In this document: positions 19,447 to 47,869 of the stretch, one piece after another
Layout of the letters: each line of letters starts with the position of its first letter
How positions within the stretch are numbered: the stretch's first letter is position 1
Source of the DNA: an uncultured candidatus Porisulfidus sp.
GTDB taxonomy: Bacteria > Pseudomonadota > Gammaproteobacteria > Poriferisulfidales > Poriferisulfidaceae
DNA: 64,000 bases
NCBI GenBank assembly: GCA_965116025.1
Contig: OZ220480.1
Span: 398,415 to 462,414, forward strand
Direction of reading: 5' to 3'
Notes under the pieces: generated by a model
Databases searched by the model: none
What the model saw: only the letters and a program-made list of their open reading frames with translations
What the model was told of the DNA's origin: nothing
Made by a program: the position numbers and the translations under genes

Positions 19447-19522
19447 GGCCAGGTAGCTCAGTCGGTAGAGCAGGGGACTGAAAATCCCCGTGTCGGCGGT
19501 TCGATTCCGTCCCTGGCCACCA
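19447..19522 (+). tRNA. tRNA-Phe (GAA)
   Basis: A 76-nt cloverleaf GGCCAGGTAGCTCAGTCGGTAGAGCAGGGGACTGAAAATCCCC...TGGCCACCA, with anticodon loop CT-GAA-AA and an encoded CCA end. Confidence 0.95.
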
Positions 19523-40962: not shown

Positions 40963-41026
40963 CCGTTGACCCGATACAATGCAGGCGTTCATCTTATCCG
41001 ATTGGCCGCCGCTCAATACCGGGAAA

Positions 41027-41470
41027 ATGCTCTGGCTCAAGGCGTTGCACCTGATTTTCATGGTGACCTGGTTCGCCGGGCTGTTCTATCTGCCGCGCCT
41101 GTTCGTGTACCACGCGATGAGCGACGACGAGACCAGCCTCCAGCGCTTCCACGTCATGGAACGGAAACTGCTTTGGGGGATCGCCACCCCGGGCGGAGCG
41201 CTGACTCTGTTGTTCGGATTCTGGTTGCTCGCCGACTATCGGCCCGACCTGCTTTCCGCGGGATGGATGCAGTGGAAATTGATCTTGGTCGGGGCGCTGG
41301 TCGGATATCACGCGTGGTGCGTCCTCCTGCAACGAAGATTCGCGCGAGGAGAAAACCGGCATGGACATATCTGGTATCGCTGGTTCAACGAGGCTCCGGT
41401 CCTCATTCTGATCGCGACCGTGATCTTGGCCGTGCTGCGCCCGCAAGCGGGTTTCGACTTCTTTACCTGA
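41027..41470 (+). CDS. hemJ: protoporphyrinogen IX oxidase HemJ (UPF0093/CopD-like)
   Basis: It starts [30 protein letters not shown]. It is divergent from argC, as in Pseudomonas. Confidence 0.8.
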
Positions 41471-41623
41471 TATGCCCGATTGTTACAATAACGGCTGGGC
41501 GACTGGCGACCCCTCTTCTGGCCAGAACTCCCTCATGCCTCCGCGCCATTCCGCGCATCGCGAAAGAGAAATCTTAGACAAGCCGAAACGATCAACCCGA
41601 TAATTCAATCCGAGCCGAAGCAA

Positions 41624-42454
41624 GTGAGTCCCGTTCAAATTCCACCGTTGAAGATACAGGGAATCAAGACTAGAGCGATACCGTTTATTCGGGATCGTGT
41701 TGATTGGGAAGGTTCTGGCCGTTGGATAGAACCTTTTGTTGGTTCGGCCGTCGTCCCTTTCAACATAAAGCCGGACCGCGCTCTGCTTGGCGACGCCAAC
41801 CCGCATTTGATCCGCTTTTATAAATCCATACAGCGAGAGACCGTCACCAGCGCGACAGTCCGTATTTTCTTAGAACGAGAGGGCGCATATCTCCTACGCG
41901 ACGGACAAGAGCATTATCATCGAGTTCGGGAGCGCTTTAACGACGCGCATGATCCGCACGATTTCCTATTCCTGAATCGCGCCTGTTTCAATGGCATGAT
42001 GCGCTTCAACAAGAAAGGATACTTCAACACTCCCTTCTGCCGGAAGCCAGAGCGCTTTCGGCCCGCCTATGTAACGAAGATCTGCAATCAAGTTCAGAGA
42101 ATCGCGGATGTTATGGCCAATACATCATGGAAGTTCGTTTGCGCTGACTGGTCCGACATTATCAGCGAAGCGCGGGAAGGCGATTTTGTGTATTGCGATC
42201 CGCCATACGCTGGACGCTTCGCGGATTACTTCAACTCCTGGGATGACGGCGACGCATCGCGGCTAGAAGACGCTTTGAAGGCATTGCCATGCCCATTTCT
42301 TTATTCCATGTGGTCAGAAAACAAGTACCGGAAGAATGATCGGCTGCATGAATCGTTTTCCCAGTATCGAATTGAGACGTTCTCTCATTTCTATCATTTG
42401 GGCGCGACCGAGAACTTGCGCAACAGGATAATTGAAGCCTTGGTTTCTGGATGA
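41624..42454 (+). CDS. D12-class (Dam-like) N6-adenine DNA methyltransferase
   Basis: It has motif I PFVGSAVV near the N terminus and motif IV DPPY (YCDPPYAGRF) near the C terminus, the alpha-class order. It is the first gene of a lower-GC block. Confidence 0.8.
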   Translation: MSPVQIPPLKIQGIKTRAIPFIRDRVDWEGSGRWIEPFVGSAVVPFNIKPDRALLGDANPHLIRFYKSIQRETVTSATVRIFLEREGAYLLRDGQEHYHRVRERFNDAHDPHDFLFLNRACFNGMMRFNKKGYFNTPFCRKPERFRPAYVTKICNQVQRIADVMANTSWKFVCADWSDIISEAREGDFVYCDPPYAGRFADYFNSWDDGDASRLEDALKALPCPFLYSMWSENKYRKNDRLHESFSQYRIETFSHFYHLGATENLRNRIIEALVSG

Positions 42455-42708
42455 AAGATTATATTCTGAATGCGCTCGCGCAAATTCAAAACGGCTATTC
42501 TCAATGTGGAATCGCTGATCGTATAGTCTCGTGTTCATCCACTTGGTTTGGACGCGAAAGCATGTCCGAACGCATCAAGTCCTGGTTGAAAGAAAACTCT
42601 AGTGACGCGCGGCGACTTTCATCACGACCCTCACTCAGGTCCAAGAAGGCCATGATGCGAACGCCGATCAAGGAAGCGGATATCTGCCATTTATCTGGGC
42701 AGCCGTAA
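42451..42708 (+). CDS. 85-aa ORF that exactly bridges the MTase stop and the Res-like start
   Basis: Its ATG overlaps the upstream TGA (ATGA), and its TAA overlaps the downstream ATG (TAATG). It has low complexity and no recognisable fold. Confidence 0.35.
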   Translation: MKDYILNALAQIQNGYSQCGIADRIVSCSSTWFGRESMSERIKSWLKENSSDARRLSSRPSLRSKKAMMRTPIKEADICHLSGQP

Positions 42709-45344
42709 TGTACGGTTTGACCCTGTTCCGGGACTTAAAAGAAGCCACCATCTCGTGGCGCGAAAATGGCTACCCTTGCGAGGACCACCCCTACATCAGC
42801 TTCATTCTTTCGCACCAAACCAGAGATGCGCGAGAAACCCTCAAGGAGGACGAGGCCATTGAGTTGAAGTACCTGCGCGAGCCGCAGTTTCTAGCCCTGG
42901 AGATTTATTGGTATGTTCGATTGATCCTGAAAACCCCCAAGATCGTGGATTTGTACAAGCATTTTTACGGGAACGACAAAAGCGAATTCTTCGACGCCAT
43001 CGGACTCCCCTTGTCGCCAGACGCCTTCGACTACGCTACCATTGACCAGGTCATGGAAAAGGTCAAGCATGACCAGGAGTTCGTGAAAAGAAAAAGAGCG
43101 GACGCGCTACATGAATCAATTCGCCTGGAATATCCGAGCTACATTCTGGCCTTGGCTATGGGAGCGGGAAAGACCGTTCTGATCGGAACGATAATCTCGA
43201 CGGAATTCGCTATGTCGATCCGGTATCCTGACAGCGAAATCAAATTCATGAGAAACGCCCTCGTCTTCGCCCCGGGCACGACCATCATCGAAAGCCTGCG
43301 AGAGCTCAGCGACTTGGCATACGAAGAGATATTGCCGCCGGACGCACGGCGAGACTTTCTCGCGAACCTGAAAATCGAATACCCTGGAAAGGGAAAGGAT
43401 ATCCAAATCCAGGCCGGTAGCTCCTACAACTTGATCGTCACCAATACCGAGAAGATCAGCCTGCGGGCCAAAACGAGAAAGAATCGGACGGATTTCGAAC
43501 GCGACCAAGTGCTCGCGAATCTTCGGCTCCAGAAAATCGCGAGCCTGCCAAATCTCGGAGTGTTCTCGGATGAGGCGCACCACACTTTCGGAAACGCTTT
43601 CGAGAAAATCAAGAGAGTTCGAGAAACCATCGATTACATCAATGACCATGGCGCGCCGATCGTGGCGGTCGTGAACACGACCGGGACCCCGTACTACAAA
43701 AAGAAACCGCTAGTAGAAGTGATCGCATGGTATGGACTCGGAGAGGGAATCAAGGACAACATCCTCAAGTCTCTGACGAATGGAATCCACCGGTATGACA
43801 TGAGAAACGAGCCCGAAGAGACCGTGATCAACGATATCGTGCGCGAATTCTTCAAGACCTACGGGGACGTGACTCTTCCCGACGGTGCCAAAGCGAAGAT
43901 CGCCTTTTACTTCAAGACGCAAGAGCATTTGGAAACGTCCAAGAATTTTATCGAGAAGGCGATGACGGAAATCGGGGAAAGCGTCTCCCAAATACTGGTC
44001 AACACGCAGAAATCTGACAGCTGGCAGCTGGACGCCTTCCGGCGCCTCAATGACCCTGGTAGCCTAATGCGGGTGATTCTTCTTATTGGGAAGGGGGTCG
44101 AGGGCTGGAATTGCCCCAGCCTGTTCGCCTGCGCCCTGATCAAGCCGCAAACCAGCAAGACCTATGTGCTGCAGGCTTCCACGCGGTGCTTGCGGCAAGT
44201 ACCCGGAAATTCGCTCCCGGCGAAGATCTTTTTGGATCACCAGAACTCCGGCATCCTCAATCAGCAACTCCGGGACAGTTTCTCCACTGACCTGACAGAC
44301 CTTATGCTTGGAGCGAGCCAGAAGAAACACGTCGTCTTGCGCATCAGGAAGCCCGATCTACCAAAACTAGAAATCACCAGGAAAGTCAGAAAAGCCGTAA
44401 GAACACGCGAATCAAGCGCGCCCATCCATCTGGCGAGACCGAAATCCAAAGCTCCTCCCACGGTGCTTCGAAACATATTGACCCCCGCGTTCAGCAGCTC
44501 GTTCGATTTGCTCATGCCCACCGGCGAGACGAAAAAACTTGTCGTGGCGGAAAAATCCACGGATCGCTACACCGTCGCCAGAAGAATCGCTTCCAGATAC
44601 CATCTCCCCCTTCTGCAAGTCCTGCAAAGCTTGAGAAAACTCTATCCCAAGGGAACGATTCCGAATGGTCACCTGTATGGACTGCATAAGCAGGCCGAGC
44701 GGCAACAAGCGAACTATGAAATCGTTGAGGAGGATGTGACCGAGGTGATGGCGCTGATCCGGATTCAGGACGAGAACGGCAACAATTTATTCGAGACGGA
44801 AGCGGACGACGATGGCGGTAGCGTTTACGTTCACCGGCTACGCATGTTGCGGCGCACTTATGAAAGAATGGAGCAGCTCGACCTTTTTCAGGATGCGGCG
44901 ACATGCGCGGATCGTCACGACCTGAGCTATCACTACGTCCCGTACAATTTCGATAGCGGGCCGGAAAGCTCTTTGTTCAAGCAGACCCTGTCCGCGCTCA
45001 ACGCCGACCCTCGCGATGTCGAAGCTTTTCTTTTTACCGGGGGCCTGACGAATCCGAGCATGACCGACTTTCACTTTGAGTACATGGGGGAAAACGGGCA
45101 ATACCACCGCTACTTCCCTGATTTCGTGGTGGTCAAAAAGAAAACCCGGGAGTTTTACGTCGTCGAGGTCAAGTCTGAGCGCGATCGCGAAAACCCTACC
45201 GTTGAAGCGAAGAAAAAGGCTGTGGAACGATTGCGGAACATGCAGCCAGAGAAGTTCAAGTATCACATCGTCTACACTGGCGAGGGAGAGGTTCCACCTA
45301 ACGAGATTCAACATATTCTGGACTGGGCAGAATCACGGCGATGA
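42708..45344 (+). CDS. Type III restriction Res-like SF2 helicase with a C-terminal PD-(D/E)xK nuclease (878 aa)
   Basis: It has Walker A LAMGAGKT, DEAH box FSDEAHH, motif III TGTPYY, motif VI QASTRCLR, and a C-terminal YFPDFVVV...EFYVVEVKSE nuclease motif. Confidence 0.75.
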   Translation: MYGLTLFRDLKEATISWRENGYPCEDHPYISFILSHQTRDARETLKEDEAIELKYLREPQFLALEIYWYVRLILKTPKIVDLYKHFYGNDKSEFFDAIGLPLSPDAFDYATIDQVMEKVKHDQEFVKRKRADALHESIRLEYPSYILALAMGAGKTVLIGTIISTEFAMSIRYPDSEIKFMRNALVFAPGTTIIESLRELSDLAYEEILPPDARRDFLANLKIEYPGKGKDIQIQAGSSYNLIVTNTEKISLRAKTRKNRTDFERDQVLANLRLQKIASLPNLGVFSDEAHHTFGNAFEKIKRVRETIDYINDHGAPIVAVVNTTGTPYYKKKPLVEVIAWYGLGEGIKDNILKSLTNGIHRYDMRNEPEETVINDIVREFFKTYGDVTLPDGAKAKIAFYFKTQEHLETSKNFIEKAMTEIGESVSQILVNTQKSDSWQLDAFRRLNDPGSLMRVILLIGKGVEGWNCPSLFACALIKPQTSKTYVLQASTRCLRQVPGNSLPAKIFLDHQNSGILNQQLRDSFSTDLTDLMLGASQKKHVVLRIRKPDLPKLEITRKVRKAVRTRESSAPIHLARPKSKAPPTVLRNILTPAFSSSFDLLMPTGETKKLVVAEKSTDRYTVARRIASRYHLPLLQVLQSLRKLYPKGTIPNGHLYGLHKQAERQQANYEIVEEDVTEVMALIRIQDENGNNLFETEADDDGGSVYVHRLRMLRRTYERMEQLDLFQDAATCADRHDLSYHYVPYNFDSGPESSLFKQTLSALNADPRDVEAFLFTGGLTNPSMTDFHFEYMGENGQYHRYFPDFVVVKKKTREFYVVEVKSERDRENPTVEAKKKAVERLRNMQPEKFKYHIVYTGEGEVPPNEIQHILDWAESRR

Positions 45345-47098
45345 GCGAGAAAGCGATCAAGATACGGCCTATCAAAGGGCGCGCCATGCTTTCCTGGGTC
45401 GGAAAAAAGGTCTTGGATTCCGTTCGGTATTTTCCTCCTCAACTATGCGAAAGCGTCGGAGTGAAGACCCCACCCGCCGAACCTTCTTACAAAGAGTTTG
45501 AGCGTGGGGGATTCAATCTGCTTTTTCACGGAGACAACAAGGAGACGCTATCCTCTCTCATCAACCTTGGATTCCGGGCAAAAGTCGACTTGATCTACAT
45601 CGATCCTCCCTTCGATTCTGGCGCTGACTACGTCAGGAAAATCAAACTGCGTGGCACGAAGCGCGTTTATAGCGGAAAACTTGACGGAGCGGAACACACG
45701 GCGATAGAGCAGGCGCAGTACGAGGACATCTGGGCGAACGACAACTACCTTCAGTTCATGTACGAGCGCTTGATTTTGATGCGAGAGTTGCTGAGCGATC
45801 AAGGAAGCATCTATCTGCATTGCGACGAGCACAAGGGACATCAATTGCGTCTTTTGCTGGACGAGGTTTTTGGAGAGGAAAACTTCAAGCGGGAAATCGT
45901 CTGGGACATAACGGTTCTATCCGGCTTCAAGACAAAGGCCCGCAACTGGATTCGCGGACATGACACGATCCTTTTCTACACGAAAGGCCAGAGCCAGAAA
46001 TGGAATTCCCCCAGGATTCCGCACGATCAGAAATACTTGGCTCGTTTTGACCAGATAGATGAGGATGGCCGAAGGTATTTCGGGGGCAGAGGCCCGCGCC
46101 GATATCTGGATGAAGTCAAATCGAGGGGCAAGGCGGTCGGAGACGTATGGTCGGACATTATGTCCTTTCAGCAACAACCAACTTCCACGGAAAATGGGCA
46201 ATATCCCACGCAAAAGCCAGAGAAGCTGTTAGAGCGAATCATTCAAGCGTCCAGCGACGAGGGATCCATAGTTTTGGATTGCTTCTGCGGCTCCGGGACG
46301 ACGGCCGCCGTGGCGGAAAAACTTAATCGCCGCTGGATCATGGCGGATCTCAACAAGGGCGCCATCCAAACCACCGTCAAAAGACTGCAGAAGGCGCATG
46401 CGGAAAATGAGGGCGGCAAGTTGATTCATTACCGCGTCAACAACTATGACGCCACGAAGCAAAACGCTCTAAAGAAAGTCATTATCGCGAAATACGGCAT
46501 CCAGTCAGATCGCAAGGATCTGTTTTTTGATGGCACGGTGGGCGGGCAACTGGCCAAGATCGTGGAGCTGGACAAGCCATTGACCGTTTTGGATATCCAA
46601 AACATCAAAGAGGAAATTCGGAGCAATAGGCCAGAGGACACTCGGAACGTGGTCGTTTTCTGCAACGGGTCAGAAATAGAAACGCTGGAAGCTCTGGAAA
46701 AAGAGAAAAGCCCAATTAACCGGATCGTCGCTCTCGATATTCAGCGAGACTCGGTGTTCACGAATCAACCCGCGGAAGCGGAAGTTGAGGTACGCAAAGC
46801 CGGGAAGCGCGTCCAAATTGAAATCTCGGACTACATCAGCCCGACCATCCTCGCTCGATTGGACGTTGACCGAACACTGCTTGATGAGCAAATAGACGAT
46901 TTTCGAGCGCAAATCGATTATGTGCTGATCGACACGGATTACCGCGAAGAATATTTCCAAATAATGGAAAGCGATGTGCCACGCGCGAAGAGCGATTTGA
47001 TTAAAGGCGCATATGACCTGCCTCTGCCTCGAGCCAACGCGACCGTGGCCGTGAAAATCGTGGATATGGTCGGAGAGGAAGTCCTAGTCGTGAAATAG
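45341..47098 (+). CDS. Type III Mod-like beta-class N6-adenine DNA methyltransferase (585 aa)
   Basis: Motif IV DPPF (LIYIDPPFDSGADY) precedes motif I FCGSGTT (beta-class order). Its start overlaps the Res stop (ATGA). Confidence 0.75.
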   Translation: MSEKAIKIRPIKGRAMLSWVGKKVLDSVRYFPPQLCESVGVKTPPAEPSYKEFERGGFNLLFHGDNKETLSSLINLGFRAKVDLIYIDPPFDSGADYVRKIKLRGTKRVYSGKLDGAEHTAIEQAQYEDIWANDNYLQFMYERLILMRELLSDQGSIYLHCDEHKGHQLRLLLDEVFGEENFKREIVWDITVLSGFKTKARNWIRGHDTILFYTKGQSQKWNSPRIPHDQKYLARFDQIDEDGRRYFGGRGPRRYLDEVKSRGKAVGDVWSDIMSFQQQPTSTENGQYPTQKPEKLLERIIQASSDEGSIVLDCFCGSGTTAAVAEKLNRRWIMADLNKGAIQTTVKRLQKAHAENEGGKLIHYRVNNYDATKQNALKKVIIAKYGIQSDRKDLFFDGTVGGQLAKIVELDKPLTVLDIQNIKEEIRSNRPEDTRNVVVFCNGSEIETLEALEKEKSPINRIVALDIQRDSVFTNQPAEAEVEVRKAGKRVQIEISDYISPTILARLDVDRTLLDEQIDDFRAQIDYVLIDTDYREEYFQIMESDVPRAKSDLIKGAYDLPLPRANATVAVKIVDMVGEEVLVVK

Positions 47099-47179
47099 CC
47101 CTCGATTTCGGAACCCTCCAAGATCGCGATAAGGCATGAGCCCGCGCGTCCTGCCCCGTCCCATCTCGCGCACGTCCGC

Positions 47180-47869
47180 ATGAACGCGACCGCCTTCTAC
47201 GATTTGGACCACACGCTGATCGGTTGCGACAGCGATTACGAGTGGGGACAGTTTCTGGCGGACTCCGGGGAGATCGATGGAGATGCCTACCGTTCGCGCA
47301 ATCAGGCTTTCTACGACGATTACCTCGGAGGAAGACTGGACTCCCTCGCGTATCTGGAATTCGTCCTGACTCCGCTTGGGCAAATCGATGGGCGACGTCT
47401 GCTGGAGCTTCGCGCGCGATTCATGGAAGAGCGGATCCGGCCAGCTTTGCGACCAAAAGCGGAACGGCTGATCGCGAAGCATCGCGCGCGCGGCTTTCGT
47501 CAGATTGTCGTGACCTCGACCAACGCTTTCATCGCGGAACCGATCACGAGGATATTGGGCATCCCAACCTTGATCGCGCCACGACCCAAACTACAGTCGG
47601 GACGATACACCGGAGAGTTGCTCGACGCGCCGTGCTTCGCCGCCGACAAGCCAAAGCGAATTCGAGCCTGGGCGGAGCGCGCGGGGATCCAGTTGGAGGA
47701 AACCTGGGGGTATTCCGATTCCTTCAACGACATCCCGTTGCTGGAGTTCGTCGATCATCCGGTGGCCGTGGACCCGGACCCATCCCTGCGCGCGCGCGCC
47801 CAGGAGCGGAAGTGGGAAATTATCAGCCTGAGCGAAGCTACTCCGGGGAATACCCGAACGCCTCCTTGA
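47180..47869 (+). CDS. HAD-superfamily subfamily IB hydrolase (phosphoserine-phosphatase-like)
   Basis: It reads FYDLDHTLIGCDSD (DxD motif) ...WGYSDSFNDIPLLEFV (HAD motif IV). Confidence 0.7.
   Translation: MNATAFYDLDHTLIGCDSDYEWGQFLADSGEIDGDAYRSRNQAFYDDYLGGRLDSLAYLEFVLTPLGQIDGRRLLELRARFMEERIRPALRPKAERLIAKHRARGFRQIVVTSTNAFIAEPITRILGIPTLIAPRPKLQSGRYTGELLDAPCFAADKPKRIRAWAERAGIQLEETWGYSDSFNDIPLLEFVDHPVAVDPDPSLRARAQERKWEIISLSEATPGNTRTPP

What the first reader, a model, noticed from the sequence alone, without database searches (positions are those of the whole stretch)
41480..47100. Lower-GC four-gene restriction-modification-like operon with atypical composition and order: Dam-like MTase, 85-aa bridge ORF, Type III Res-like helicase-nuclease, Type III Mod-like MTase, all joined by overlapping stop/start codons
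Canonical Type III systems are mod then res. Here the res-like gene precedes the beta-class Mod-like MTase. An additional alpha-class D12 MTase leads the operon. An 85-aa ORF spans exactly from ATGA (42451-42454) to TAATG (42706-42710), implying translational coupling of all four genes. Two MTases of different classes plus one SF2 helicase-nuclease could be a Type III system with an extra orphan MTase or an uncharacterised defence architecture. The block sits between hemJ and a HAD hydrolase gene and has reduced GC, consistent with a mobile defence island.
Basis: partly seen in the sequence, partly recalled or inferred. Interest (0 to 1): 0.6.

Follow-up and report, generated by a model that had tools for sequence, protein, structure and literature searches.

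The report
Two restriction systems fused, one decayed
The supposed four-gene defence operon is two unrelated restriction-modification systems joined end to end: an EcoRV-type system that kept its methylase but lost its nuclease (the 85-aa ORF is the nuclease gene's broken stump), and an intact Type III-like res-mod pair from a family common in sponge-symbiont genomes.

Summary
Four same-strand ORFs lie at 41624-47098 with ATGA/TAATG/ATGA overlaps. GC is 0.52 against 0.645 in the flanks, and the block sits between hemJ and a HAD gene. It is not one four-gene system.

- **Gene 1** is an M.EcoRV-family methylase, 49% identical to M.EcoRV of pLG13. Its closest relatives (81% identity) are followed, across the same ATGA overlap, by a 252-aa EcoRV orthologue.
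- **The 85-aa ORF** is that nuclease gene's stump: 36 codons with a +1 frameshift, then about 148 nt of unknown origin. It has no homologue and was never called as a gene.
- **Genes 3 and 4** are an intact Type III-like pair. Res has an SF2 ATPase and a C-terminal PD-(D/E)xK nuclease. Mod is beta-class, EcoP15I-Mod-like, with a central variable TRD.

In 68 related genome loci, nearly all sponge-symbiont MAGs from many phyla, res precedes mod in 59 of the 62 that hold both. None carries the Dam-like gene or the 85-aa ORF.

Some interest remains. The Res family matches no PADLOC model and is only remotely like EcoP1I/EcoP15I Res. Its relatives also carry variable defence cargo between res and mod.

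The parts
41575..41604 (+). Promoter-like site (TAGACA-18-GATAAT, 10 of 12) about 20 nt upstream of the methylase start. It is a candidate promoter for the whole block.
   Evidence: This is a consensus match only. The number of such sites in the region is not above the shuffled expectation.
41624..42454 (+). Intact M.EcoRV-family (Dam/D12, alpha-class) N6-adenine DNA methyltransferase, now without a partner endonuclease.
   Evidence: PF02086 2e-36 and TIGR00571 above cutoff. PADLOC MTase_II PDLC03264 2.8e-120. 48.9% identical over 99% of its length to M.EcoRV of pLG13, which lies next to R.EcoRV. 81% identical to 276-aa relatives that are followed by EcoRV-family endonucleases. Motifs PFVGS (37) and DPPY (192) are present.
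42451..42559 (+). Pseudogene stump of an EcoRV-family restriction endonuclease. It keeps about 36 of 252 codons, with a 1-nt insertion (frameshift) near 42526.
   Evidence: ORF85 residues 1-24 are 75% identical to the N-terminus of the L075 endonuclease. The DNA alignment extends the homology to about 42559 in the +1 frame: RVHPLGLDAK against RVYPLGSDTK. The full-length partner enzyme matches R.EcoRV at 6.6e-75.
42451..42708 (+). The 85-aa 'bridge' ORF. It is a chimeric reading frame made of the R stump (in frame, then out of frame) and filler, and it ends at the TAATG overlap with res.
   Evidence: No Pfam, PADLOC or NCBIfam hit. No homologue among 5.8 billion proteins, and the ORF itself was not called in the source annotation although its three neighbours were. 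Exhaustive HMMER gave only two spurious hits to repeat proteins.
42560..42707 (.). About 148 nt of unknown origin between the R stump and the res start. It replaces the conserved res leader seen in the nearest relatives.
   Evidence: No match by blastn or tblastx to the 75 loci held, or by blastn-short to the five nearest res upstream regions. It does not align to the roughly 100-nt TACAAT-containing leader shared by L069, L070, L160 and L161.
42708..45344 (+). Res-like subunit: N-terminal domain, SF2 ATPase/translocase core, middle domain and C-terminal PD-(D/E)xK nuclease.
45341..47098 (+). Mod-like beta-class N6-adenine methyltransferase with a central variable target-recognition region.
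   Evidence: PF01555 1.6e-50. PADLOC MTase_III PDLC03633 1.6e-58. Best solved relative is EcoP15I Mod 4zcf_A at 1.8e-24. Residues 181-280 are hypervariable (identity 0.20-0.36) between DPPF(88) and FCGSG(315), while the rest is conserved. It sits near res in 62 of 68 loci.
40979..41470 (+). Left flank: host hemJ-family gene (GC about 0.6).
   Evidence: PF03653 1.6e-43.
47180..47869 (+). Right flank: host HAD-family hydrolase gene.
   Evidence: PF12710 1.5e-35.

Best explanation
The block is a composite of two independently acquired restriction-modification modules.

**Module A (41624-42559)** is what remains of an EcoRV-type Type II system. The alpha-class methylase is intact and probably still methylates GATATC. 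Its endonuclease gene has been cut down to a frameshifted 36-codon stump, so the methylase is now an orphan.

**Module B (42708-47098)** is an intact two-gene Type III-like system written res then mod. Mod presumably recognises a short asymmetric site through its central variable domain and methylates adenine. Res, docked on Mod, would use its SF2 ATPase to communicate along the DNA and its C-terminal PD-(D/E)xK domain to cut unmodified DNA.

Module B, without the conserved leader of its nearest relatives, lies immediately behind the stump. The 85-aa ORF is the accidental reading frame that runs from the old R start codon through the junction to the res start.

*Shown:* the homologies, the stump and its frameshift, the absence of genes 1 and 2 from every relative, the conserved res-mod pairing and order, and the intact catalytic motifs.

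*Inferred:* enzymatic activity and specificities, the order of events (insertion into R, or a deletion between neighbouring systems), and transcription of res-mod by read-through from the methylase promoter.
For: 1. M identity: 49% identical to M.EcoRV of pLG13. Relatives at 81% identity are followed, across an ATGA overlap, by a 252-aa enzyme that matches R.EcoRV at 6.6e-75. In the wider family, 61 of 66 loci with enough flank carry an adjacent EcoRV-family R.
2. Stump: 75% identity over codons 1-24, then homology continues in the +1 frame to about 42559 and stops. No other R-derived sequence is in the window.
3. ORF85 is an orphan.
4. Res-mod is a self-contained unit. Res and mod are paired in 62 of 68 genome loci, with mod downstream in 59. 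The four closest relatives (72-74% identity) are res-mod only, at another chromosomal site. No relative carries the Dam-like gene or ORF85.
5. Mod is Type III-like. Res has the helicase-then-nuclease order, with all family-invariant motifs intact, and its fold is nearest to restriction motor subunits.
6. The native res leader is missing.
7. Both modules have GC 0.50-0.53 against 0.645 for the host flanks.
8. Orphan MTases arising by decay of the R gene is an established pattern (PMC3424554). Locus L074 shows an independent decay of the same R family, split into 157 and 85 aa.
Against: - Nothing here shows activity for any of the three intact genes.
- The origin of 42560-42707 is unknown, so the recombination event cannot be reconstructed.
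- No target-site duplication, integrase or transposase marks either module.
- GATATC is not depleted in the window (31 observed, 27 expected), so there is no trace of past EcoRV-type restriction pressure.
- REBASE could not be consulted.
Confidence: 0.8

Rival explanations
1. One reading: one integrated four-gene defence system in which two methylases of different classes and the helicase-nuclease cooperate, and the 85-aa protein is a functional bridge or regulatory subunit.
For: All four ORFs are on the same strand and joined by start/stop overlaps. The GC content is uniformly low.
Against: Genes 1 and 2 are absent from all 68 related loci and from the four closest relatives. None of 84 loci of the methylase family has res or mod beside it. 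ORF85 is a frameshifted stump of R.EcoRV type with no homologues. The M-ORF85 and res-mod overlaps are each present in relatives of the two separate modules.
Confidence: 0.04
2. An addition to the main explanation. The 85-codon frame is kept open because its translation, not its peptide, matters. Having lost its own leader and promoter, res is expressed by read-through from the methylase promoter, and ribosomes terminating at TAATG reinitiate on res.
For: The native res leader with its TACAAT box is absent. The only reasonable promoter-like site lies upstream of the methylase. The frame ends exactly at the res start. An open run of this length has a chance probability of about 0.06.
Against: p of 0.06 is weak and was computed after the fact. 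There is a single locus, so no comparative test is possible. No clear Shine-Dalgarno sequence precedes res. A weak promoter-like site at 42498-42527 could serve instead. The frameshift in the stump shows the sequence has been drifting.
Confidence: 0.2
3. The res-mod pair is not a classical restriction-modification system. The helicase-nuclease might be a stand-alone or modification-dependent defence nuclease, or a Type I-like motor, that merely travels with a methylase.
Against: Res is tightly linked with a Type III-Mod-like methylase over 42-74% Res identity and many phyla. The Mod has a hypervariable central TRD with conserved N- and C-terminal parts, as expected if specificity lies in Mod and a conserved surface holds Res. 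No HsdS-like gene was seen among the annotated or Pfam-scanned neighbours. The nuclease is C-terminal as in Type III Res, not N-terminal as in HsdR.
Confidence: 0.12
4. The junction is an assembly artefact that joins two unrelated contigs.
For: The source is evidently a metagenome-type assembly. All window proteins are singletons on one 2.02-Mb contig.
Against: The 1.1-kb module A would need two chimeric joins inside a contig with ordinary host genes on both sides. The stump carries its own frameshift, which is typical of real decay.
Confidence: 0.03

Closest known systems
EcoRV Type II restriction-modification system (pLG13: R.EcoRV plus M.EcoRV)
   Same: The methylase is 48.9% identical over 99% of its length to M.EcoRV. 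The partner enzyme in 81%-identical relatives is a full-length R.EcoRV orthologue that keeps the PD...D-I-K and GSGNT loops visible in the alignment. The first 36 codons of that gene are still recognisable in the window.
   Different: The endonuclease gene is destroyed, leaving an orphan methylase. In these relatives M and R are co-directional with an ATGA overlap. In pLG13 they are divergent and an HTH regulator is present.
Type III restriction-modification systems (EcoP1I, EcoP15I)
   Different: The gene order is res then mod. It is mod then res in P1 and EcoP15I (PMC12707154). The Res sequence is only marginally related to EcoP1I Res (hhalign probability 50%) and is missed by all PADLOC models. 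Relatives often carry 0.2-5.4 kb of cargo genes between the two subunit genes.
Orphan (solitary) DNA methyltransferases derived from decayed R-M systems
   Same: An intact methylase sits next to a degraded endonuclease gene, the pattern proposed as the origin of many orphan MTases (PMC3424554).
   Different: Here the decay coincides with the arrival or juxtaposition of a second, unrelated R-M system. That system now sits where the R gene was.
Type I HsdR motor subunits
   Different: HsdR has its nuclease at the N-terminus and needs HsdM and HsdS. Here the nuclease is C-terminal, no HsdS-like gene was seen among the annotated or Pfam-scanned neighbours, and the methylase is Mod-like.

Membership tests
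Type III R-M (EcoP1I/EcoP15I kind) | Two linked genes, one Mod methylase and one Res ATPase-nuclease, that travel together | tested here: met
   Res and mod are in the same locus in 62 of 68 genome loci. The other 6 are short or truncated contigs. The pair is also seen in L069-L071, L160, L161 and the Ideonella plasmid.
Type III R-M (EcoP1I/EcoP15I kind) | Mod is a beta-class N6-adenine MTase (motif IV before motif I) with the TRD between them, homologous to known Type III Mods | tested here: met
   DPPF at 88 and FCGSG at 315. Hypervariable block at residues 181-280. EcoP15I Mod 1.8e-24. Thirteen of the 25 PADLOC hits listed are MTase_III models, the best at 1.6e-58, although the single best hit is an MTase_II model at 9.9e-65.
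Type III R-M (EcoP1I/EcoP15I kind) | Res has an SF2 helicase-like ATPase core followed by a C-terminal PD-(D/E)xK endonuclease | tested here: met
   Walker A 152-156, DEAH 288-291, motif III 325-328, motif VI 489-496, and PD 804-805 ... ExK 820-822 are all family-invariant. Pfam ResIII plus TnsA-like/VRR-NUC.
Type III R-M (EcoP1I/EcoP15I kind) | Res is recognisably homologous in sequence to characterised Type III Res proteins | tested here: inconclusive
Type III R-M (EcoP1I/EcoP15I kind) | Gene order mod then res | tested here: not met
   The order is res then mod in the window and in 59 of 62 loci. It is mod then res in only 3 (L029, L062, L068) and in the distant plasmid triplets. Gene order is a habit of the archetypes rather than a strict definition.
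Type III R-M (EcoP1I/EcoP15I kind) | One-strand methylation of an asymmetric site; ATP-dependent cleavage that needs two inversely oriented unmodified sites and cuts 25-27 bp away | not testable with these tools
   This needs methylome data and biochemistry (features as in PMC3874151 and PMC12707154).
EcoRV-type Type II R-M | Dam-family methylase homologous to M.EcoRV | tested here: met
   48.9% identity over 99% of the length to the pLG13 methylase, which lies next to 'type-2 restriction enzyme EcoRV'.
EcoRV-type Type II R-M | Intact EcoRV-family endonuclease (PF09233) next to the methylase | tested here: not met
   Only codons 1-36 remain, with a frameshift. No other R-derived sequence is in the window.
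EcoRV-type Type II R-M | GATATC specificity | not testable with these tools
   Inferred from homology only. GATATC counts (31 observed, 27 expected) are uninformative.
DpnII-like two-methylase Type II systems (considered) | A Dam-like MTase and an N6_N4 MTase serving one Type II endonuclease and co-inherited with it | tested here: not met
   The two methylases never co-occur in relatives of either one. The nuclease is an ATPase-nuclease, not a DpnII-type enzyme.
Controller (C) protein of R-M systems (considered for the 85-aa ORF) | Small helix-turn-helix protein, conserved and encoded upstream of R | tested here: not met
   No Pfam, NCBIfam or PADLOC hit. No homologues. The sequence derives from an R gene stump.

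The most novel reading that the evidence does not exclude
The res-mod pair may belong to a large and so far undescribed lineage of Type III-like systems. Its Res subunit is missed by PADLOC and not named as a restriction subunit by PGAP, and its usual gene order is res then mod. In most relatives the space between the two subunit genes serves as a hotspot for same-strand defence cargo: ThsB-like TIR proteins, 8xMP membrane proteins, DUF1828/DUF6978, SDH-type proteases, DUF5343 plus Ymh, and extra Mods. The lineage has spread horizontally across at least ten phyla of sponge symbionts. In this window it may have displaced the nuclease of a resident EcoRV-type system and taken over that system's expression signals.
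Probability: 0.35. Interest if true: 0.55.

Novelty: new variant of a known kind. Interest (0 to 1): 0.3.

Why it matters
For this locus, the practical point is annotation. A four-gene reading would invent a system that does not exist. The correct call is an orphan M.EcoRV-like methylase, an R pseudogene, and a two-gene Type III-like R-M system. The locus is a clear example of one restriction system ending up where another system's nuclease gene used to be, which is one route to orphan methylases.

The wider value lies in the res-mod family. It is abundant, with thousands of homologues, and it crosses phyla within sponge microbiomes. PADLOC has no model for its Res subunit. It also frames a variable cargo slot rich in TIR-type and other defence genes. 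If confirmed, that adds a family to Type III-like diversity and gives a handle for finding new defence genes in symbiont genomes.

Tried and rejected
- **Origin of 42560-42707.** blastn and tblastx against the 75 loci held at the time, and short-word blastn against the five nearest res upstream regions, found nothing. It does not align with the conserved res leader. It is not a 3' remnant of the R gene.
- **ORF85 as a real family.** The word-indexed search found nothing. The exhaustive HMMER search found only two repeat proteins, judged spurious.
- **Tying Res to solved or catalogued families by sequence.** PDB phmmer and profile searches found nothing. PADLOC at E<=10 found nothing. NCBIfam gave only a sub-threshold partial hit to the BPTD_3080 family restriction endonuclease (54.8 bits, cutoff 800), and no paper mentions that name.
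- **Mobility signatures.** No flanking direct repeats, integrase or transposase. No RNA genes in the block.
- **GATATC or GATC avoidance.** None.
- **Naming the host.** All window proteins are singleton clusters on an unnamed 2.02-Mb contig, and the exact-protein look-up found no record.
- **DpnII-like two-methylase and C-protein readings.** Rejected (see the membership tests).
- **Literature on res-first Type III systems.** The reviews consulted describe the mod-then-res archetypes and do not discuss a res-first family.
Full report
**1. What is there**

Four same-strand ORFs occupy 41624-47098:
- 41624-42454, 276 aa, GTG start
- 42451-42708, 85 aa
- 42708-45344, 878 aa
- 45341-47098, 585 aa

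The junctions read ATGA (42451-42454), TAATG (42706-42710) and ATGA (45341-45344). The block has GC 0.521 against 0.645 for the rest of the window. It lies between a HemJ-family gene (PF03653) and a HAD hydrolase gene (PF12710). The only correction is that the first gene starts at 41624, and 41471-41623 is intergenic.

**2. Gene 1 and the 85-aa ORF are the remains of an EcoRV-type Type II system**

Gene 1 is a Dam/D12 alpha-class methylase (PF02086 2e-36; TIGR00571 above cutoff; PFVGS at residue 37, DPPY at 192). It is 48.9% identical over 99% of its length to the methylase of pLG13, the original EcoRV plasmid, where that gene lies beside 'type-2 restriction enzyme EcoRV'.

Its closest relatives are 276-aa proteins, 81% identical. 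In L072, L073 and L075 each is followed, across the same 4-nt overlap, by a 252-aa PF09233 protein. That protein matches R.EcoRV over its full length at 6.6e-75. In a wider sample of the family (47-61% identity, 80 metagenome loci plus these), 61 of the 66 loci with at least 800 nt of flank carry an EcoRV-family endonuclease next to the methylase. None carries res or mod.

In the window, the gene after the ATGA overlap is the 85-aa ORF:
- Its first 24 residues are 75% identical to the N-terminus of those endonucleases.
- A DNA alignment shows a 1-nt insertion near 42526. After it, the homology continues in the +1 frame (RVHPLGLDAK against RVYPLGSDTK) to about 42559 and then stops.
- No other part of the endonuclease gene is present anywhere in the window.

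So the ORF is made of 24 in-frame stump codons, about 12 out-of-frame stump codons and about 49 codons of filler.

The ORF has no Pfam, PADLOC or NCBIfam hit. It has no homologue among 5.8 billion proteins. It was not itself called as a gene in the source record, although the three neighbouring proteins of the same 2.02-Mb contig are in the collection. An exhaustive HMMER scan of 1.8 billion representatives returned only two weak hits to internally repetitive proteins. The chance that the 61 codons after codon 24 stay open is about 0.06.

The 85-aa ORF is therefore a pseudogene-derived reading frame, not a conserved bridge gene. Locus L074 shows the same endonuclease family decaying independently, split into 157 and 85 aa. 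Decay of the R gene is a proposed origin of many orphan methylases (PMC3424554).

**3. Genes 3 and 4 are a self-contained Type III-like pair**

*Res-like protein.* The 878-aa protein has more than 2,900 homologues. An alignment of 30 of them keeps these motifs invariant:
- Walker A: GAGKT 152-156
- DEAH: 288-291
- Motif III: TGTP 325-328
- Motif VI: QxxxRxxR 489-496
- C-terminal PD (804-805) ... ExK (820-822)

Pfam gives ResIII just above its gathering score, plus TnsA-like and VRR-NUC matches at the C-terminus.

*Mod-like protein.* The 585-aa protein is a beta-class N6-adenine methylase (PF01555 1.6e-50; DPPF at 88, FCGSG at 315). Its best solved relative is EcoP15I Mod (1.8e-24), and it hits many PADLOC MTase_III models. 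Across 53 homologues, residues 181-280 between motifs IV and I are hypervariable (identity 0.20-0.36). The N-terminal part, the catalytic motifs and the C-terminal 230 residues are conserved. That is the layout expected of a Type III Mod with a central target-recognition domain.

*Neighbourhoods.* In 68 genome loci that encode a relative of Res:
- 62 also encode a Mod relative.
- Mod is downstream of res in 59 and upstream in 3.
- The other 6 are short or truncated contigs.

The four closest relatives (72-74% identity; L069, L070, L160, L161) are res-mod pairs only. L069 and L070 lie at a different chromosomal site, and three of the four have the same 4-nt overlap. None of these loci contains the Dam-like gene or anything like the 85-aa ORF. 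The res-then-mod order is thus the family norm, and genes 1 and 2 are not part of the system.

**4. How far it is from canonical Type III**

The domain order, helicase then C-terminal PD-(D/E)xK nuclease, and the Mod partner match Type III. The Res sequence does not:
- PADLOC has no model that hits it even at E<=10. The same holds for its plasmid homologues.
- It has no PDB match by sequence, alone or as a profile.
- A profile-sequence comparison with EcoP1I Res from phage P1 gives only 50% probability, over helicase motifs V-VI.

PGAP names the homologues 'DEAD/DEAH box helicase family protein' or 'TnsA endonuclease N-terminal domain-containing protein'. I therefore describe it as working like a Type III system. 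I count it as a divergent variant, not a demonstrated member. The archetypes P1 and EcoP15I are mod then res (PMC12707154).

**5. The junction**

The four nearest relatives share a conserved leader of about 100 nt upstream of res, with a TACAAT box. The window sequence 42560-42707 does not align to it, and homology starts at the res ATG. The origin of these 148 nt is unknown.

So module B lacks the leader its nearest relatives share and sits directly behind the R stump. The best promoter-like site in the block is upstream of the methylase (41575-41604). It is a reasonable but untested inference that res-mod is now expressed by read-through from there. Translation of the accidental 85-codon frame, ending at TAATG, may then help ribosomes reach res. 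This rests on a single locus with a chance probability of about 0.06 for the open frame, so I give it 0.2.

The data cannot say whether module B inserted into the R gene or a deletion fused two neighbouring systems. There are no flanking repeats, no integrase or transposase, and no RNA genes in the block.

**6. Context**

Nearly all 68 genome loci are MAGs of sponge-associated lineages: Poribacteria, Latescibacterota, Spongiihabitans, Poriferihabitaceae, Arenicellales, Nitrospirales, Thermodesulfobacteriota, Limisphaerales, Acidimicrobiia, Rhodothermaceae, Binatia and Spirochaetia. Res identity is 42-64%, which indicates horizontal spread. The scan used peptide patterns taken from the query, so this sample is biased towards close relatives. 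Enrichment of R-M systems in sponge symbionts is already known (PMC5099237, PMC9531527).

Cultured relatives exist. An Ideonella dechloratans plasmid has the same res-mod pair (38.5% identity) inside a defence island. Enterococcus and Nitrosomonas plasmids carry a UvrD-PD-(D/E)xK helicase, a Mod and a Res-like protein.

**7. Verdict**

The locus is an orphan M.EcoRV-like methylase, an R pseudogene stump, and an intact but divergent Type III-like res-mod pair. The specific claims that made it look unusual do not survive: a four-gene unit, a bridge ORF, and two cooperating methylases.

What remains of interest is the uncatalogued Res family and the cargo slot between res and mod in its relatives. 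Confidence in the composite explanation is 0.8, and interest is 0.3.

Noticed in passing
L001-L068, between the end of res (about 10580 in locus coordinates) and mod: In 42 of 59 loci the two subunit genes are separated by 0.2-5.4 kb (median gap 1,054 nt) filled almost entirely with same-strand ORFs. Pfam on 111 of them found ThsB-like TIR (12), TIR_2 (9), 8xMP membrane protein (8), extra N6_N4 methylases (7), DUF1828 (7), DUF6978 (6), SDH-type ClpP-like protease (5), TIR-TPR proteins (4) and DUF5343 plus Hypoth_Ymh pairs. PADLOC found ThsB (9) and PDC-M24B (7). This looks like a defence-cargo hotspot inside the operon. The window itself has no cargo.
   Followed up: partly
L001-L068 (record titles): Res homologues at 42-64% identity occur in MAGs of at least ten phyla, nearly all sponge-associated. 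This points to extensive horizontal transfer within sponge microbiomes. The search was pattern-based and so biased towards close relatives.
   Followed up: partly
L069:7860-8000, L160:111-251, L161:1-136, L070:7860-8000: A conserved leader of about 100 nt with a TACAAT box lies upstream of res in the four nearest relatives. It is probably the native res promoter and 5' UTR, and it is absent from the window.
   Followed up: partly
L070:7308-7841 and L157:4256-4985: A ParD/ParE or Phd/RelE toxin-antitoxin pair sits immediately upstream of res, both in a marine metagenome relative and on the Ideonella plasmid.
   Followed up: no
L158:220-7463 (Enterococcus pEC369) and L159:1-7526 (Nitrosomonas eutropha p2): Distant Res-like homologues (28-32% identity) on conjugative plasmids form a three-gene set: a UvrD-family helicase with a C-terminal PD-(D/E)xK/Cas4-like nuclease, a Type III-like Mod, and the Res-like protein. 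PADLOC recognises only the helicase (as GajB-like) and the Mod.
   Followed up: partly
L157:9659-12393 (Ideonella dechloratans plasmid): The res-mod pair there is followed by an AAA ATPase, a DUF4276 protein and an Mrr-family gene, which makes it a defence island.
   Followed up: no
L074:6828-7597: An independent case of decay of the EcoRV-family endonuclease next to an intact 81%-identical methylase. The gene is split into 157-aa and 85-aa ORFs.
   Followed up: partly
window 29409-29764 (-) and 19447-19519 (+): A cluster of four tRNA genes and one separate tRNA gene. They are unrelated to the finding.
   Followed up: no
window 42679, 43398, 43833, 46101, 46592: Five GATATC sites lie inside the 5.7-kb block, one of them in the filler part of the 85-aa ORF. 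These would be substrates of the orphan methylase. Across the whole window GATATC is not depleted (31 observed, 27 expected).
   Followed up: no
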